Positions 3,001 through 24,000 of a stretch of DNA of 64,000 nucleotides are shown here, piece after piece (within the stretch, counting starts at the first letter, position 1; each line of letters begins with the position of its first letter). Origin of the DNA: Ophelia neglecta (lineage: Eukaryota). The stretch lies in NCBI GenBank assembly GCA_965285935.1, contig OZ260661.1, forward strand, positions 54,312,001 through 54,376,000. Reading direction: 5' to 3'. The position numbers were made by a program.

Positions 3001-6000
3001 ATTATGATAGCCCAGGCCATTAGAGCTGAGCCTAACCCCCTTATGTATACAATATTTTATGAACCTGTAAAAAGCCTGAAGAGGCCTATATGTTATCTGT
3101 AGATAAGTCACCTCATAGGGTTATAAAGCATGACCACAGTTGCCTGAGCTTTTGAACTTTATGTTAGGTAATTTATTTGGTATACTGGCAATACTGGCAA
3201 CAACAGGGGGGTGGGGGGGGGGGGGGGTGGTGGTGGTGCTTTTATTAGGTAGGGTGCCTCTAAAAAGGATTATAAGGTAGGTTTTATATGGTTACAATAA
3301 ACCACTAGCTGGCAGAGTACGCGCATTTCTGACGGACTTTCGATTTTTCAATAAGTGCTGCTTTCATCTTCTTGAGGGCCATAACTGCCATATGGTATTT
3401 ATTAATAGTGTATATATGTTATAAACACTGATAACCACTGATTACTAACATGCATGCAAGTGGTCACTACATGTGCGTTTAATGCGTGTCCTTTCTGGCA
3501 AGATGGTATTCACCCATTGTGCTCTGTTCTCTTTGTTCACTGGAATTCTGTATAATTTCTTGCCACAAACTTTGGTGTAACAATTGCTACATCCAAAATC
3601 AAAACAACTCGAAGGCATTTTTATACAGGTCTAACACATTCGACTGCCTGTGTGTGGCACGAGTGAGTGGCAGCGAGCTTTCTCCCCTACAGCCACGTGT
3701 TTTTAATTTATGTGTGACGTCACTCATTCTTCCGCCAGAGGTCGTTTCCTGGCAGAGACGCATTCTTGCAAGCTGATAGCGCGCGATTCGTTGAATCTCA
3801 AACGACAAGCTGATAGCTTGGCATTCTTGCGCCAGAGGTCGTTTCTCCGTTTTTGTCAACTAAACCAACGACCTCTGGCGGAAGAATGGCAGAGACGCAG
3901 AAAGGGCGGCATCTACTTAAGCTGTCTGCTCGCGGCTTTTATCACCAGAGATACATGAGATCACCGGCTGACCGAGCTCATCGAGACATCAGCTTCAATC
4001 TACACCAACTTCATTCCGAGGACTGCTTGCAGACATTACCTAAGCTGCTGTGTTTTGAGTTTGTTCCCGGGAATTTTTTTTTATTTTTTTTTATAAAAAA
4101 CTGAAGAAGGAGAAAACATGGCCTGCGGACATCCAAACAGGCCTTTGTCTGTGTGTAATAGTGTAGAAAACTTAATTGAATCGGTGACAAGATGCTCTGA
4201 ATGTTGTGCTACACTCCCCAAGCATCTAGGCTTTCATTGCCCACTTTGCCCTGCCCATCAATTCAAGCCCACAAGGCGAAGTTTCGTTGTATCCCATCTA
4301 CATGCTTCTCACTGGAAACATCGTGTGCACAGTCCTACAGGTAAGTGATCAATGTACTTTCATTCATTTATATATAGCTTTTTTTGTAAACACATAAATG
4401 CAAAATACTAGAATTGCTCAATTACAGTGTCAATGAGGAGGTCCCTTGCTTATGCTAGCACAGTTATTTAAGCCAAATGAAATTACAAATGTTATGTGTA
4501 AAACAGTAAAAGAAAATTGTTGCATGAGGACATGTTTTGTTATATTTTCTGAGTTCTCACCTTCAGAAAATTAAGTAAATAATTGATGTCATCACATATC
4601 TACCATTCATGATATTGCTAGTGATTTATTTATATAAATTCATAATTTCTTGTCTGTGCACACTTGTACAGAATGCCTAGATGTTGCATGTTGGGTCATG
4701 TACAGAACTTGAAAGAAGCTCTATTTGTTTTTTAAAAGCCTATATGGATTTGAGCTCTTAATGATTTTATTGGCATCGAGAAGGATCGCCAGTTAGTCTA
4801 AAAATTTTTACCAAGGTACCAAGTATTTAAATTTCAAAATCAGTTGTATCTTGAATTTAAAATTCTCTTGTGCTCTGTATCATAATTTCACTGAAAACTG
4901 TATCAAGTACCAACATTTCAAAATATGTTATTACAAGTGGTTGGCATACTAAGGAAAGCGGCTTTTAATGCGGAAAAAAATGTACAAGCATAATTGTATC
5001 AAAATTTCATACCCTTAAAAAAAGGTATTGGATTTTCAATTACCCTGTATTTATCATCAAAATTTCATTATGCCTGTAGCGCGAATTCAGGGTCTGTATT
5101 GCGAATCAAAATTTCACATAAAGCTGTATCACATATTTCAATTTACCCCTTGCAGGGCCCTTTCATGGTAACTTGTTGTTATTTATAGTGCAAATAAACA
5201 ACAAGTCTAATTGTTGCATTTGTAAGGTTATCGAGTTGAAACCTTTGGAGAAAGACCTTCTGTTCACAGGTTACCCCCTGTTACAGGCTACAAGTACCCC
5301 AATCGGGAATGATAATCAGTATTAGTAATATATCCTGTGTCTAACATTACTGCCAAAATTTACTGCTTCCACGACTATTGACAGAAGCAAATTCTTCTTA
5401 CTAGATTTTGTATTAATAATCAAATATATATATGATGGTAGTTTGTTCATCAGTTCTCATCATCATTTTATGCACCTTTTTTTTCAATCAAAACAGTATT
5501 GTAGTCCTTCTGCATACACACCTAAAGAAAAAATATTTGACTCATTCATGCAAGTTCTAAACATTGACTGTAGTGAAAAAATTTCCTGCCACAACAAGAA
5601 GTGGCAATAATCAAGTTTATCTTGATACAAGATGCACATTTCTTATCTCCTAATGGCACCAGGAGTGTCATTACCAAGTTATCTCCTGTTACACACTGAG
5701 CTTGGTGGTTATTAGCTGCTTTGAGTTCCCAATATTGCCACGCACCATGTCCCAAAGGTGGATGTTTTATGCTTTGATTTTATTCACTTTAGTCATTACA
5801 CCATACTTTGTCAATTAAAAATGTATACATGTATTATAATGTCCCTTGATTAGATCCAGTTGACAGCTGCTGCTTACTGGTGCTGTGCTTTTATCAGGAG
5901 AACTGTAAACTTAATTTGTTTATATAGAACTCACATCACAACTTTGCCAGGAAGATCACTTGATATGTAGATGACCACATTCATGTTAATTTTAGAATAT

Positions 6001-21000: not shown

Positions 21001-24000
21001 GTAGATATGAGTTACTGTCTTTAGGGATTTGTATAAGTTCCATAACAGTTTATTAACTAATAAATTTGATTTGGCATTCATATTAATATTATTTTCCAGT
21101 GATGCAAAACAAGGAGATTGGGGCTTTGAATACCTCCAGCAGGTGATAGTGCCAGAAACGGAAGTGCTTGTGATTGCAAAAATTAAGGAAATGAGTTTCA
21201 ATGAAGCTGATGTGTTTTTGTTTAATTGGAAAGAAAATAAAAAGAATATCTGGCCTGATCCACAATGAGCACTTCTTTTGTAAGTCAACAGTTACCGTAA
21301 TGCATGACGACAAAAGTTTAGTTTTACCCTTACCTGCGCATATATGAGTAAGAGTATTCTCGTTTAAGCCTATTAGTTCGATTAGGAGCAACCCCATGGC
21401 GGAGTTGGTAGTTGTCTGAACAGAGAGATTGAATCATTCTCTCAGCAATTATTCATCTGAATTTCACCTGGTGTATTGTTAACAGTAATGTACTCCCAAA
21501 CATTTTCCTTTCTGCTTAGGTTTGAGAGTTCAAAGAACTGAATTCCAAATACACCACAGACTGTGGGGAACTGATCGACAACTCGCTGCCATTATGTTCT
21601 CCCGGTACAGAGATGGGAGAGGACTTGCCAGCCTAACACTCTGCCTCTACAAAGATGAATTGTGTCAAAATCTTCTCTGATTGGTGTTGGATTATCAGCA
21701 CTGTACTTCTTGTTGACTCACTTGTGTAAGAAACAGAACCAAATTTGCTGTTCTCTAATCACATCTTTGTAAGCTGCATAGTGCTTCTCCTCATTTTCGC
21801 ATGCCTCACGTTATAACTGGAATGATGTCTTACACCAAGTTACAGAATAATACCTAGATTTTTGGAAGTATTAAACATTATGCCCTGGACATAACTGTTG
21901 CATTACTCTTTAGTAAGTCAAGTAACTCTGTTTCCTTAACACTGAAGCATATTTTGTAGAGATTACTTTTTATTATAACTAGAGTATGCTGTGATATGTG
22001 AGATTGTCTATAATTAATTTTGTGTAGCAAATCACAACAATTCTGTTTTGTTAACATCCTAATTGTTCTTTACCTGTGAGTAAATAATTATGTTTTTGAA
22101 TGATAATATGAAGAAATGATGTATTTTGATTTGAATTTTGTATCCGTGGTCGTGGTATGTTATTTTTTATATTAGATTTTTATGGCCCTAGGGTATGTAT
22201 AGGTAGTTTTTTAATTCCCTGGGACTTGTTGTAATTAGCTTGTTGCTTTCATATTCTCATGATCATTGCAAAGCTATAGGCCTATATTCCAATGATGCCC
22301 ATTACTTAAGGTTACGTTTAGTTGAGTAGTATATATATTCTCAAGATGATTACTACTTCGGGTATTATTCTATCACTTCAGATTAAAGCTATTCTAAGTA
22401 TTATCCTATGTGTTTTAGATTGTTGCTATTCGACTAATTATTGGCACTTAATATAAATGCTAGCTTAGGTATTATTCTCTATAGTCAGATTGTTGCTAGT
22501 CTATGTATTTTGTTCAACCTATTATTCTATATAGATCTAGTCAGCATTGTTGCTAGTCTCTGTTAGGACTAGATGTGTAGGCCTATGTTTCTTATATTTT
22601 GCATTGTATGGGTTTATGACCTCTTCTGCAGCGTTTTGTTGGTGTTTTGTTTATATACTCACGCATGTACAAGTACTACATTTAGTCTTTACTACCACCA
22701 ACTTGTGTATTATTCATATGAGTTATTAAATTACTGTATTTGTTTATTATCTTATATTATCTTATATTATTTGTGAGCTTTGTTTGTTTTTGTCTTTGGA
22801 TCTTATATATGATTTTGGGTCTTGCAAATTTAAAGATCCATTGCATGCCAAAGTTTCCACTGACTATTGCAGGTTACTCTGAGCTGACAACAATTTCCAT
22901 AGTAGGTTGTTTGTGACTATGTTAGTTAGCTCTGAGCTGACAACAGTCGTCATAGACTTATGCCTTTGACCAATACAGGTTGCTTCTCTCCCTTACACAA
23001 AGCTCCGAGCTCACAAAAATACTTAGTGAAGGCTTCATTTGAATATTACAGATCGCTCTGAGCTGACAACAATCTTCATTGTAGGTTGTTTGTGACTGTG
23101 ATAGCTAGCTCTGAGCTCACAACAATCGTCATTCACTTCTGTATTGGACCATTACAAGATGCTTCTCTCCCCAACACGAAGCTCCAAGCTCACAACAATC
23201 CCTATTGAATGCTTCCTTTGACTATTACAGTTCGCTCTGAGCTGACAACAATCGCCATTGTAGGTTGTTTGTGACTATGAAAGGTAGCTCTGAGCTGACA
23301 ACAGTCGTCATTCACTTTTGTCCCCGACCAATACAGGTTGCTTCTCTCCCTTACACAAAGCTCCGAGCTCACAACAAAACCTATTGAAGGCTTCATTTGA
23401 ATATTACAGATCGCTCTGAGCTGACAACAATCTCCATTGTAGGTTGTTTGTGACTGTGATAGCTAGCTCTGAGCTGACAACAATCGTCATTCCCTTCTGT
23501 ATTGGACCATTACAAGATGCTTCTCTCCCCAACACGAAGCTCCAAGCTCACAACAATCCCTATTGAAGGCTTGTTAGGTAGCTCTGAGCTGACAACAGTC
23601 GTCATACACTTTTGTCTTTGAGCAATACAGGTTGCTTCTCTCCCTTAAACGAAGCTCCGAGCTCACAACAATACTTAGTGAAGGCTTCATTTGAATATTA
23701 CAGATCGCTCTGAGCTGACAACAATCTTCATTGTAGGTTGTTTGTGACTGTGATAGCTAGCTCTGAGCTGACAACAATCGTCATTCACTTCTGTATTGGA
23801 CCATTACAAGATGCTCCTCTCCCCATCACGAAGCTCCAAGCTCACAACAATCCCTATTGAAGGCTTCCTTCGACTATTGCAGGTTACTCTGAGTTGGCAA
23901 CAATCTCCATTGTAGGTTGTTTGTGACTATGTTAGGTAGCTCTGAGCTGACAACAGTCGTCATAGACTTTTGTCTTTGACCAATACAGGTTGCTTCTCTC

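What the first reader, a model, noticed from the sequence alone, without database searches (positions are those of the whole stretch)
4118..21268. Giant, intron-rich, apparently intact KDZ element (or domesticated gene) carrying a chromatin toolkit
Seen: 15 consecutive exons over about 14 kb keep frame with canonical splice sites and no stops. They encode Zn fingers, SWIM, CxC, SAP, KDZ core, Josephin and PHD. MITEs sit in the introns while the exons are undamaged, which suggests selection. Unlike HMGXB3, no HMG box is visible. Inference: either an active Dileera/Zisupton-like transposon of more than 20 kb or a lineage-specific domesticated gene independent of HMGXB3.
Basis: partly seen in the sequence, partly recalled or inferred. 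Interest (0 to 1): 0.7.

Follow-up and report, generated by a model that had tools for sequence, protein, structure and literature searches.

The report
Intact Zisupton-type transposase gene with Josephin
This is an unbroken 20-exon gene for a Zisupton-type transposase joined to a Josephin deubiquitinase and a PHD finger; the family is known, this protease version seems undescribed, and the window alone cannot say whether it still moves.

Summary
There are 20 phase-compatible GT-AG exons from 4118 to 21268, giving 5184 nt or 1727 codons with no stop. Independent homologues support exons 1, 2, 4-11 and 14.

Domains:
- PHD passes Pfam's cut-off.
- The Josephin fold is confirmed by an AlphaFold model and Foldseek.
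- CxC4, SAP and SWIM are supported through homologues and invariant Cys/His.
- No HMG box appears in any exon.
- Pfam's KDZ model PF18758 does not match. The core is nevertheless homologous to CxC4- and CxC7-bearing fish and invertebrate proteins, so it is Zisupton-type, not Dileera.

The window belongs to a clade that carries Josephin, where relatives carry Ulp1, UCH or OTU. Six tail exons (19180-21268) look coding but have no homologues.

Mobile or domesticated is unresolved. No terminal inverted repeats were found. There is a CpG-island promoter and deep CpG decay. Of 130 family-conserved positions, 114 are kept. I lean towards an old resident gene kept by selection (0.5) over an autonomous element (0.35). 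Copy number could not be tested.

The parts
3501..4117 (.). CpG-rich intergenic promoter region between the gene and a divergent THAP-like exon. It holds a 22-nt motif three times (3725-3746 +, 3822-3843 +, 3867-3888 -).
   Evidence: CpG o/e is 0.94 in 3501-4000 against 0.06-0.5 elsewhere in 1-24000. The motif is found 3 times where 0 are expected, and nowhere else in the window. Sequence read.
4118..4340 (+). Exon 1: start codon and a C2H2-like finger
   Evidence: Sequence read. Phase 0 to 1, donor CAG|GTAAGT. tblastn with P0047 gives E 9.5e-5.
7362..7488 (+). Exon 2: C-x2-C-x12-H-x3-C finger
   Evidence: The only candidate exon that restores phase 1 to 2. All 6 of 6 family-conserved Cys/His are kept.
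7841..7999 (+). Exon 3: acidic, Q-rich linker
   Evidence: Splice sites and phase fit. There are no homologue hits.
9620..10404 (+). Exon 4: a C2H2-like finger, a conserved N-terminal domain and a SWIM-type C-x-C-x6-C-x-H motif
   Evidence: tblastn with P0054 gives E 2e-32. C109, H111, C204, C206, C213 and H215 are invariant in 18 sequences. All 27 of 27 conserved columns are kept. Pfam gives no hit.
11650..12345 (+). Exons 5 (11650-11907) and 6 (12206-12345): the CxC4 cysteine cluster
   Evidence: Pfam CxC4 scores 22.5 bits, below the cut-off of 26.9. 20 of 150 homologues match CxC4 at E <= 1e-4 (19 at or above the cut-off), at the colinear position. 20 of 21 conserved columns are kept.
12524..14202 (+). 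Exons 7 (12524-12725), 8 (13332-13436) and 9 (14018-14202): the conserved pre-core region
   Evidence: tblastn hits from 32, 6 and 38 HSPs. 22 of 25 conserved columns are kept.
14643..14784 (+). Exon 10: SAP-like helix-extended-helix
   Evidence: It aligns to residues 960-1012 of P0075, whose SAP (962-992) scores 26.3 bits against a cut-off of 23.9. The window's own exon has no Pfam SAP hit.
15089..15795 (+). Exon 11, first part: Zisupton-type transposase core piece with conserved D44, D121, H124, N127 and E154
   Evidence: 591 homologues at E <= 1e-3. 33 of 35 conserved columns are kept. The model has pLDDT 88.4. It has no PDB fold match and no PF18758 match.
15817..16248 (+). Exon 11, middle: an in-frame tandem repeat of 7.2 x 60 bp, forming a 20-residue P/S/T-rich linker
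   Evidence: TRF reports 96% matches and score 780.
16291..17034 (+). Exon 11, last part: Josephin-type cysteine peptidase domain. C72/C75, H185 and D207 are kept. H66 stands where all 14 homologues have Q.
   Evidence: The family profile hits PDB Josephin-2 at E 7e-4. The model has pLDDT 88.0. Foldseek's best 9 matches are all Josephin-type, led by 2dos at E 5.2e-8 and TM 0.63. Residue check.
17155..17860 (+). Exons 12 (17155-17259), 13 (17402-17484) and 14 (17758-17860): a basic linker and a PHD finger split across exons 13 and 14
   Evidence: Pfam PHD scores 27.6 bits against a cut-off of 24 on exon 14 alone. The C4HC3 pattern is read across the junction. tblastn with P0118 and P0007 hits here.
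19180..21268 (+). Exons 15-20 (19180-19290, 19387-19454, 19695-19824, 20420-20493, 20688-20756, 21100-21268): a tail of about 205 residues with no known family, ending in TGA
   Evidence: Splice sites and phases fit. The coding score is positive and the model frame is the best of three in 6 of 6 exons, which were not in the training set. No homologues were found. The join to exon 14 is inferred only.

Best explanation
The locus is one intact, 20-exon gene for a Zisupton-type (KDZ superfamily) transposase. It belongs to a clade in which the usual C-terminal SUMO or ubiquitin peptidase is a Josephin domain, followed by a PHD finger.

I take this copy to be an old, resident, probably single-locus gene kept open by selection. 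That means a domesticated or host-like transposase gene rather than a recently transposed element.

Proposed working (inferred, not shown):
- The N-terminal zinc modules (three C2H2/C2HC-like fingers, a SWIM-type motif, CxC4) and the SAP motif bind DNA.
- The conserved core still has the family's acidic and His residues. It could cut or join DNA, or merely bind it.
- The Josephin domain removes ubiquitin from a chromatin or silencing factor, or from the protein itself.
- The PHD finger docks the protein on a histone H3 tail.

What is shown: the gene structure, the homology, the Josephin fold and the conserved residues. What is inferred: transcription, the join to the tail exons, any catalysis, and immobility.
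For: Gene model: 20 exons, all GT-AG, phases consistent, 1727 codons open. Junctions 9/10 and 10/11 reproduce a contiguous stretch of the Lineus longissimus RefSeq protein P0001.

Family: there are 591 homologues at E <= 1e-3. Among the best 150, the Pfam counts are CxC4 20, Josephin 10, Peptidase_C48 10, UCH 5, PHD 4, SAP 4, CxC7 2 and OTU 1. The window sits in a 17-row clade (SH-like support 96) that holds 7 of the 8 Josephin-labelled rows in the tree.

Integrity: 114 of 130 family-conserved columns are identical. For the core it is 33 of 35, and for Josephin 31 of 36. The Josephin fold is confirmed.

Resident rather than recently mobile:
- No inverted repeat above chance links 1-4200 with 17861-23000. 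The best is 17 nt at E 2.7.
- There is no second copy or fragment in the 64 kb. The best off-locus HSP has E 0.079.
- A single CpG island (o/e 0.94) lies at the 5' end, with a repeated 22-nt motif and a divergent neighbour.
- The gene body is as CpG-poor (exons 0.34, introns 0.21) as the neighbouring sugar-transporter genes (0.31, 0.22). The intact LINE stands at 0.61.
- The 12 kb of introns carry MITE-like insertions.
- The nearest relative, P0001, is a named RefSeq locus with isoforms, with 3 member sequences on 1 contig.
- The tail exons are absent from all 150 relatives. No AATAAA or ATTAAA lies within 740 nt after exon 14, while there are two after the final stop.
Against: Nothing here measures copy number, synteny or dN/dS. 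The retained conserved residues are equally what an autonomous element would show.

The literature weakens several of my arguments:
- Zisuptons are normally multi-exonic, with 18-31 exons (PMC9297572, section 11).
- A giant single-copy Zisupton excised in the laboratory (PMC9977147, passage).
- A mobile KDZ element without detectable TIRs is reported (PMC11343200, passage).

So the absence of TIRs, the size and the apparent single copy are all weak arguments. The element's ends could also lie beyond the window's left edge, or be short.

The neighbourhood is rich in transposon-derived sequence: a THAP plus HTH_Tnp_4 gene, a LINE and a satellite. CpG decay would also be expected for a long-methylated transposon family.

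The core piece has no PDB fold match and no PF18758 match. Its identity as a nuclease therefore rests on association with CxC4/CxC7, on the literature and on one Atlas lead.

Josephin residue 66 is His where all 14 homologues have Gln. This may weaken the peptidase.
Confidence: 0.5

Rival explanations
1. It is an autonomous, possibly still active, giant Zisupton-type DNA transposon copy of at least 17.6 kb. The transposase carries its own Josephin deubiquitinase and PHD reader as accessory modules, which help integration or blunt host ubiquitin- or SUMO-dependent silencing.
For: - The whole reading frame and 114 of 130 family-conserved positions are intact.
- The family is very large and diverse (591 representatives at 50% clustering) and many members are short fragments, as is usual for transposon-derived predictions.
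- The peptidase module is swapped between clades (Josephin, C48, UCH, OTU), which is typical of mobile-element accessory domains.
- Multi-exon structure, sizes up to 31.7 kb, single-copy state and missing TIRs all have precedents in mobile KDZ/Zisupton elements (PMC9297572 section 11; passages of PMC9977147 and PMC11343200).
- The surroundings are transposon-rich.
Against: - No TIRs were found between the flanks.
- There are no related fragments or non-autonomous derivatives in 64 kb.
- MITE-like insertions in the introns and deep CpG decay argue against a young copy.
- The promoter is a CpG island shared with a divergent gene.
- The tail is lineage-specific.
Confidence: 0.35
2. The locus is two units. 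The transposase gene ends shortly after the PHD exon, by read-through of the exon 14 donor to a stop about 66 nt on. Exons 15-20 belong to another gene, or to a host gene into whose intron the element inserted. This reading is compatible with either of the other two.
For: - Relatives that carry PHD fingers (P0007, P0047, P0049) end just after them.
- None of the 150 relatives matches exons 15-20.
- The phase-0 to phase-0 join has a one in three chance of fitting by accident.
- No homologue was found for the last exon.
Against: - No start codon or first exon in a fitting phase was seen between 17861 and 19179. The one ATG-plus-donor candidate I read near 18831-18840 gives a stop when joined in phase (read).
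- No AATAAA or ATTAAA lies in 17861-18600, while signals follow the final stop at 21870 and 22382.
- Exon 14 has a usable donor, AAG|GTATTT.
- The tail exons have the same coding score per codon as the rest.
Confidence: 0.3
3. It is the plain orthologue of vertebrate HMGXB3.
For: No held paper links the two.
Against: - There is no HMG box in any of the 20 exons at E <= 1, nor in any of the 150 nearest relatives at E <= 1e-4.
- The window looks like an invertebrate genome, with intronless Sugar_tr genes, and its nearest named relative is a nemertean protein.
- It carries Josephin and PHD domains.
Confidence: 0.03

Closest known systems
Zisupton DNA transposons (first described in platyfish; Bohne et al. 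2012, recalled and seen only as cited in PMC8557442, PMC12062965 and PMC9297572)
   Same: - A large multi-exon transposase gene.
- N-terminal zinc modules with CxC4 and a SWIM-type motif.
- A SAP motif before the core.
- A core homologous at E about 1e-37 and 40% identity to fish proteins carrying CxC7, the module defined on platyfish Zisupton (PMC12062965 passages).
- A cysteine peptidase after the core.
   Different: - The peptidase here is Josephin. That Zisupton carries a Ulp1-type SUMO peptidase is recalled, not checked; C48 was seen in 10 of 150 relatives.
- The C-terminus is a PHD finger plus an unknown tail instead of CxC7 or F-box.
- No TIRs or TSDs were found in the window.
- The span is 17 kb, against 8-9 kb cores in Pristionchus (PMC9297572).
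Fungal KDZ elements (Kyakuja, Dileera, Zisupton; for example KDZ1-3 and KDZx1 of Cryptococcus, PMC11343200 passages)
   Same: A CxC-type zinc module lies N-terminal to the transposase. Elements are large (6-11 kb). KDZx1 has CxC4 plus SWIM and no detectable TIRs.
   Different: Those proteins match Pfam PF18758. The window and all 150 of its nearest relatives do not. The fungal elements are not reported with Josephin or PHD in the passages I saw.
Josephin-like peptidases in other mobile elements (Dualen non-LTR elements, Chlamys Penelope-like elements; PMC8557442 passage; 'JCP' in a figure legend of PMC9977147)
   Same: A transposable-element protein carries a Josephin-related cysteine peptidase, thought to interfere with protein degradation.
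   Different: Those are retroelements, whereas this is a cut-and-paste-type transposase. The five papers that hold both 'Zisupton' and 'Josephin' do not link the two in the three I read.
Ataxin-3 / Josephin-1/-2 deubiquitinases
   Same: The fold matches (TM 0.60-0.65 normalised to the solved chains). The Cys, His and Asp positions of the family are kept.
   Different: Identity is about 16-18%. The domain is embedded in a 1727-residue transposase. His stands at the position where all 14 relatives have Gln, six residues before the conserved Cys.
HMGXB3 (vertebrate gene said to derive from this transposase family; recalled, not verified)
   Same: It would be a host gene derived from a KDZ/Zisupton-type transposase, if the domestication reading is right.
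   Different: There is no HMG box here. Josephin, PHD and the tail are present. No direct comparison was made.

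Membership tests
Zisupton superfamily (KDZ class) transposase | Transposase core homologous to that of known Zisupton proteins | tested here: met
   Exon 11 core against fish proteins P0027 and P0151, which carry CxC7 (64.8 bits), the module defined on platyfish Zisupton: E 1.1e-37 and 40% identity (PMC12062965 passages). The platyfish protein itself was not in hand.
Zisupton superfamily (KDZ class) transposase | Match to Pfam PF18758 (KDZ transposase domain) | tested here: not met
   There is no hit at E <= 10 for the window's core. 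There is none in 150 relatives at E <= 1e-4, nor in 6 full-length relatives at E <= 10. An Atlas feature search puts 20 of 30 hits in a set whose top-listed cluster has PF18758 on 16% of its members, which is a lead only.
Zisupton superfamily (KDZ class) transposase | CxC4 cysteine cluster plus SWIM-type zinc motif N-terminal to the core (the 'canonical Zisupton' of PMC11343200) | tested here: inconclusive
   The window's CxC4 scores 22.5 bits, below the cut-off of 26.9. 20 of 150 relatives match CxC4 at E <= 1e-4 (19 at or above the cut-off), at the colinear place. The C-x-C-x6-C-x-H motif is invariant in 18 sequences, but there is no Pfam SWIM hit.
Zisupton superfamily (KDZ class) transposase | RNase H-like DDE catalytic fold | tested here: inconclusive
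   The model of the exon 11 piece is confident (pLDDT 88.4). Foldseek finds no PDB match at E <= 0.001; the best is E 1.1. The piece is only part of the domain, and the joined protein was not folded. Conserved D44, D121 and E154 are present, but their roles are not assigned.
Zisupton superfamily, as a mobile element | Terminal inverted repeats and 8-bp target-site duplications | tested here: not met
   No inverted match above chance links 1-4200 with 17861-23000. The ends could lie outside the window or be very short.
Zisupton superfamily, as a mobile element | Several copies with different flanks, or insertion polymorphism | not testable with these tools
   Only the 64-kb window is available and it holds no second copy. 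No eukaryotic genome collection was open.
Josephin (MJD) cysteine peptidases | Josephin fold | tested here: met
   The AlphaFold2 model has pLDDT 88.0 and pTM 0.85. The 9 best Foldseek PDB matches are all Josephin-type, with E from 5.2e-8 to 3.2e-5 and TM 0.50-0.65 normalised to the target. The family profile hits 6pgv at E 7e-4.
Josephin (MJD) cysteine peptidases | Catalytic Cys, His and Asp/Asn, plus the Gln before the Cys | tested here: inconclusive
   C72, C75, H185 and D207 are kept (14/14, 14/14, 14/14 and 13/13 in relatives). Residue 66 is His where all 14 relatives have Gln. The roles of these residues are assigned from recalled knowledge of ataxin-3. Activity was not assayed.
Josephin (MJD) cysteine peptidases | Pfam PF02099 above its gathering score | tested here: not met
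   The window scores 15.0-17.9 bits against a cut-off of 26. 10 of 150 relatives pass, with 28.4-58.1 bits.
PHD finger | Pfam PF00628 above its gathering score, and the C4HC3 ligand pattern | tested here: met
   Exon 14 alone scores 27.6 bits against a cut-off of 24. The pattern C-x2-C-x9-C-x2-C-x4-H-x2-C-x15-C-x2-C is read across exons 13 and 14.
SAP domain | Pfam PF02037 match | tested here: not met
   The window's exon 10 has no hit at E <= 1. The homologous stretch of P0075, P0043, P0039 and P0108 passes with 24.4-26.3 bits against a cut-off of 23.9.
HMGXB3 orthologue | HMG box | tested here: not met
   None of the 20 exons has one at E <= 1.

The most novel reading that the evidence does not exclude
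Animal Zisupton-type transposases form clades that each carry a different ubiquitin- or SUMO-family cysteine peptidase (Josephin, Ulp1/C48, UCH, OTU) at the same place after the core. This points to a general, repeatedly re-invented strategy of acting on host ubiquitin or SUMO marks. The Josephin clade appears undescribed. This locus would be a host-retained member of it that has kept a potentially active nuclease core, gained a PHD reader and a new C-terminal domain, and is driven by a CpG-island promoter. That would be a domestication independent of HMGXB3.
Probability: 0.3. Interest if true: 0.65.

Novelty: new variant of a known kind. Interest (0 to 1): 0.45.

Why it matters
Zisupton/KDZ elements are among the least studied DNA transposons. 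No structure of their core is known, and the confident model of the core piece found no PDB relative.

A clade that replaces the SUMO peptidase with a Josephin deubiquitinase, beside sister clades with UCH, OTU or C48, suggests the peptidase is a swappable functional module. It gives a testable idea of how such elements deal with host chromatin silencing.

If this copy is a domesticated gene, it would be a second, independent recruitment of this transposase by an animal host, with its conserved residues still in place. If it is a mobile element, it is an ordinary though large and well-preserved member of the family.

Tried and rejected
1. Word-index protein search for full-length relatives of exon 11 ('longer'): none found. 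The tool itself calls this weak evidence. The 'near' search gave 5 proteins.
2. The listing of cluster members for names and sources of 10 relatives could not be made, because the database was switched off. The taxa of most relatives are therefore unknown.
3. Tail exon 20: no relatives in the word-index search at E <= 10. The Atlas gave only unnamed clusters with recognition below the useful level. Pfam found nothing for any tail exon.
4. Fold search of the core piece: no match. The profile of the core against PDB sequences gave only chance-level hits.
5. The single-sequence search of the Josephin part against PDB gave only chance hits. The family profile was needed.
6. tRNA and Rfam scans of the window, run to look for SINE-like inserts: 0 hits each.
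7. TIR search across the flanks: nothing above chance. The first inverted-repeat run was swamped by the satellite.
8. A separate start exon for the tail near 18831-18840 was rejected because the phase gives a stop (read).
9. Dileera rather than Zisupton was rejected on the CxC4/SWIM/SAP/CxC7 associations.
10. The window is not human-like. It has intronless Sugar_tr genes and its nearest named relative is a nemertean protein. It has no N.
11. Papers: no held paper links HMGXB3 or KIAA0194 with Zisupton, and none holds 'Zisupton' together with 'SUMO protease'. The PMC id I tried for Iyer et al. 2014 is not held. Bohne et al. 2012 and Iyer et al. 2014 are cited from recall and from other papers' citations.

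Not done:
- The joined (spliced) protein was neither searched nor folded. All searches were exon by exon.
- Supplements were closed. Fig. S6 of PMC9297572 (Zisupton TIRs and exon maps) and the supplementary architectures of Iyer et al. 2014 may already show Josephin fusions.

Full report
**What is there**

The window has no N and a CpG o/e of 0.40. It does not look human. It holds two intronless Sugar_tr genes, an intact LINE and a 179-bp satellite. The nearest named relative of the gene in question is a nemertean protein.

On the + strand, from ATG 4118 to TGA 21266-21268, I read 20 exons:

| Exons | Coordinates |
|---|---|
| 1-5 | 4118-4340, 7362-7488, 7841-7999, 9620-10404, 11650-11907 |
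| 6-10 | 12206-12345, 12524-12725, 13332-13436, 14018-14202, 14643-14784 |
| 11-15 | 15089-17034, 17155-17259, 17402-17484, 17758-17860, 19180-19290 |
| 16-20 | 19387-19454, 19695-19824, 20420-20493, 20688-20756, 21100-21268 |

A script confirmed the structure:
- All 19 introns are GT-AG behind pyrimidine-rich tracts.
- All phases fit, no exon has an inner stop, and no split codon is a stop.
- The CDS is 5184 nt, or 1727 codons.
- Exon GC is 0.43 against 0.345 in introns.
- Intron frames carry 0.059 stops per codon, so the open frame is far beyond chance.

Exon 2 was not obvious. A scan for any AG...GT exon that would carry phase 1 to phase 2 between exons 1 and 3 returned a single candidate. 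That candidate encodes a C-x2-C-x12-H-x3-C finger.

**Independent support**

The joined protein was never searched or folded.

Exon 11 (648 residues) found 591 proteins at E <= 1e-3 among 1.84 billion representatives (321 at 1e-10 and 66 at 1e-30). The best was P0001 at 2.8e-107.

tblastn of the best 150 back onto the window gave the following:
- Exons 1, 2, 4-11 and 14 are hit, colinear with the homologues' own coordinates.
- Exons 3, 12, 13 and 15-20 get nothing better than E 0.3.
- Nothing outside the locus scores better than E 0.079.

P0001 is 'uncharacterized protein LOC135489270 isoform X2 [Lineus longissimus]'. It is 59% identical over the core, with 3 member sequences on one contig. 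Its contiguous sequence runs straight across the window's exon 9/10 and 10/11 junctions.

Against 24 long relatives, 114 of 130 columns conserved at 80% or more carry the same residue in the window. These include every conserved Cys and His of exons 2, 4, 5, 6 and 7.

**Domains**

| Domain | Window's own Pfam result | Other support |
|---|---|---|
| PHD | 27.6 bits, cut-off 24 (passes) | C4HC3 pattern read across exons 13/14 |
| CxC4 | 22.5 bits, cut-off 26.9 (fails) | 20 of 150 relatives match at E <= 1e-4 (19 at or above the cut-off), at the same place |
| Josephin | 15.0 bits, cut-off 26 (fails) | 10 of 150 relatives pass; fold confirmed |
| SAP | no hit | 4 of 150 relatives pass at the same place |
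| SWIM | no hit | C-x-C-x6-C-x-H invariant in 18 aligned sequences |
| HMG box | no hit in any of 20 exons at E <= 1 | none in the 150 relatives |

For Josephin there are three further lines of evidence:
- A profile of the family hits solved Josephin-2 (6pgv, E 7e-4) and ataxin-3-like (3o65, E 0.006).
- An AlphaFold2 model of residues 401-648 of exon 11 has pLDDT 88.0 and pTM 0.85.
- Its nine best PDB matches are all Josephin-type: ataxin-3, ataxin-3-like, bacterial BpJOS and Josephin-2. E runs from 5.2e-8 to 3.2e-5, and TM from 0.50 to 0.65 normalised to the target.

Of 36 conserved columns in the Josephin domain, 31 are kept, including C72, C75, H185 and D207. Residue 66 is His (codon CAT, 16486-16488) where all 14 relatives have Gln. 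From recalled knowledge of papain-like enzymes, that Gln may form the oxyanion hole. The peptidase may therefore be weakened.

**The core**

Pfam's KDZ model PF18758 does not match:
- the window's core piece;
- any of the 150 relatives at E <= 1e-4;
- six full-length relatives at E <= 10.

The link to KDZ/Zisupton rests on three things:
- the KDZ-specific CxC4 and CxC7 modules in relatives;
- passages stating that CxC7 was defined on platyfish Zisupton (PMC12062965), that SAP occurs in Zisupton (PMC8557442), and that KDZ plus CxC4 plus SWIM is the canonical Zisupton make-up (PMC11343200);
- one Atlas lead, in which 20 of 30 hits fall in a set whose top-listed cluster has PF18758 on 16% of its members.

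The exon 11 core piece keeps 33 of 35 conserved columns, among them D44, D121, H124, N127 and E154. Its model is confident (pLDDT 88.4). It has no PDB fold match (best E 1.1) and no sequence match to solved structures. It is only part of the domain, so the expected RNase H-like fold is neither confirmed nor refuted.

**Family picture**

Among the best 150 relatives, the module after the core is as follows:

| Module | Relatives |
|---|---|
| Josephin | 10 |
| Peptidase_C48 (Ulp1) | 10 |
| UCH | 5 (two of these also carry C48) |
| OTU | 1 |

PHD is seen in 4 relatives, CxC7 in 2 and F-box in 1.

I built a FastTree of 132 core rows. Rows with fewer than 150 aligned columns were dropped from the 152 domain hits. 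The tree puts the window next to P0001 (SH-like support 96), inside a 17-row clade (support 96). That clade holds 7 of the 8 Josephin-labelled rows present in the tree; one Josephin row, P0009, lies elsewhere. The OTU row and its kin form a neighbouring 6-row clade (SH-like 99) in the same 24-row group (SH-like 88). So the window is a member of a Josephin-bearing clade of Zisupton-type transposases.

In the held library, five papers contain both 'Zisupton' and 'Josephin'. In the three I read as passages (PMC5718144, PMC8557442, PMC9977147) the two are unrelated mentions. Josephin-like peptidases are reported there for Dualen and Chlamys retroelements only.

**The tail**

Exons 15-20 encode about 205 residues.
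- They have good splice sites and fitting phases.
- Their codon-usage score is positive, and the model frame is the best of three for 6 of 6 exons. Each beats at least 97% of random intron windows. These exons were not in the training set.
- They have no Pfam match, no match in the 150 relatives, no word-index relative and no useful Atlas neighbour.
- PHD-bearing relatives end just after the PHD fingers.
- No AATAAA or ATTAAA lies within 740 nt after exon 14, whereas two follow the final stop.

The join of exon 14 to exon 15 is therefore plausible but unproven.

**Mobile or resident?**

Evidence against a young mobile copy:
- No inverted repeat above chance links the 4.2 kb upstream with the 5 kb downstream.
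- There are no other copies or fragments in 64 kb.
- The 12 kb of introns include three MITE-like inverted-repeat structures.
- The CpG o/e of exons (0.34) and introns (0.21) is as low as in the neighbouring transporter genes. The intact LINE stands at 0.61.
- The only CpG island in 24 kb (o/e 0.94, 3501-4000) sits between this gene and a divergent THAP-like exon. It carries a 22-nt motif three times.

Evidence against reading too much into that:
- Zisuptons are 'multi-exonic' with 18-31 exons (PMC9297572, section 11 read).
- A 31.7-kb single-copy Zisupton excised in a mutation-accumulation line (PMC9977147, passage).
- KDZx1 moves without detectable TIRs (PMC11343200, passage).
- The upstream neighbour is itself transposon-derived, with THAP and HTH_Tnp_4, both below their Pfam cut-offs.
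- The element's ends could lie outside the window.

I put the resident, selected gene at 0.5 and the autonomous element at 0.35. The remainder covers composite readings.

**What stayed unchecked**

- Copy number, TSDs, synteny, dN/dS and transcripts.
- The taxa of most relatives (could not be made).
- The joined protein.
- The closed collections viral contigs and metagenome contigs.
- Paper supplements.
- The original Zisupton and KDZ papers, which are not held. What I say of them is recalled or taken from citing papers.

Noticed in passing
window 22861-29707: A large satellite array with a basic unit of about 179 bp and higher-order periods of 294, 358 and 473 bp. It starts 1.6 kb downstream of the gene's stop codon. 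GC skew is strongly negative across it.
   Followed up: partly
window 1457-3630 (- strand): A transposon-derived neighbour transcribed away from the gene. It has a THAP-like first exon (3445-3630, 20.2 bits, below the cut-off) and an HTH_Tnp_4-like exon (1457-1669, 22.5 bits, below the cut-off), which together look Harbinger/PIF-like. It shares the CpG island with the Zisupton-type gene.
   Followed up: partly
window 3716-3888: The promoter region holds a TGACGTCA palindrome at 3716-3723, next to three copies of the 22-nt motif CATTCTTCCGCCAGAGGTCGTT (two direct, one inverted). The motif is found nowhere else in the window.
   Followed up: partly
window 15817-16248: An in-frame 60-bp tandem repeat of 7.2 copies with 96% matches lies inside exon 11. 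It encodes a 20-residue P/S/T-rich unit between the core and the Josephin domain. The high identity suggests recent expansion or homogenisation.
   Followed up: partly
window 37899-42415: An intact LINE on the - strand, with a 1027-residue endonuclease-plus-RT ORF at 38099-41182 and an ORF1-like 237-residue ORF at 41339-42052. It is bracketed by 44-nt direct repeats (37899-37942 and 42372-42415, 97.7% identical). Its CpG o/e is 0.61, higher than the surroundings.
   Followed up: no
window 30957-32941: A pair of 282-nt inverted repeats (30957-31238 and 32685-32941, 87% identical) encloses about 1.4 kb. This looks like a TIR-bearing DNA element. An 81-nt stretch at 31386-31466 resembles intron 1 of the gene (5091-5170, 75%).
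   Followed up: no
window 44818-46275 (-) and 50852-52318 (+): Two intronless sugar-transporter genes (Pfam Sugar_tr, 317 and 337 bits) in divergent orientation. A 314-nt inverted repeat pair lies between them (46507-46820 and 47882-48158, 85% identical).
   Followed up: no
window 283-841 (+): Weak YqaJ-like (283-540, 20 bits) and PHD-like (734-841) fragments at the left edge of the window. They may be remnants of another mobile element.
   Followed up: no
window 34975-35352 (+): A single exon-like ORF encoding the N-terminal part of a short-chain dehydrogenase (adh_short, 52 bits).
   Followed up: no
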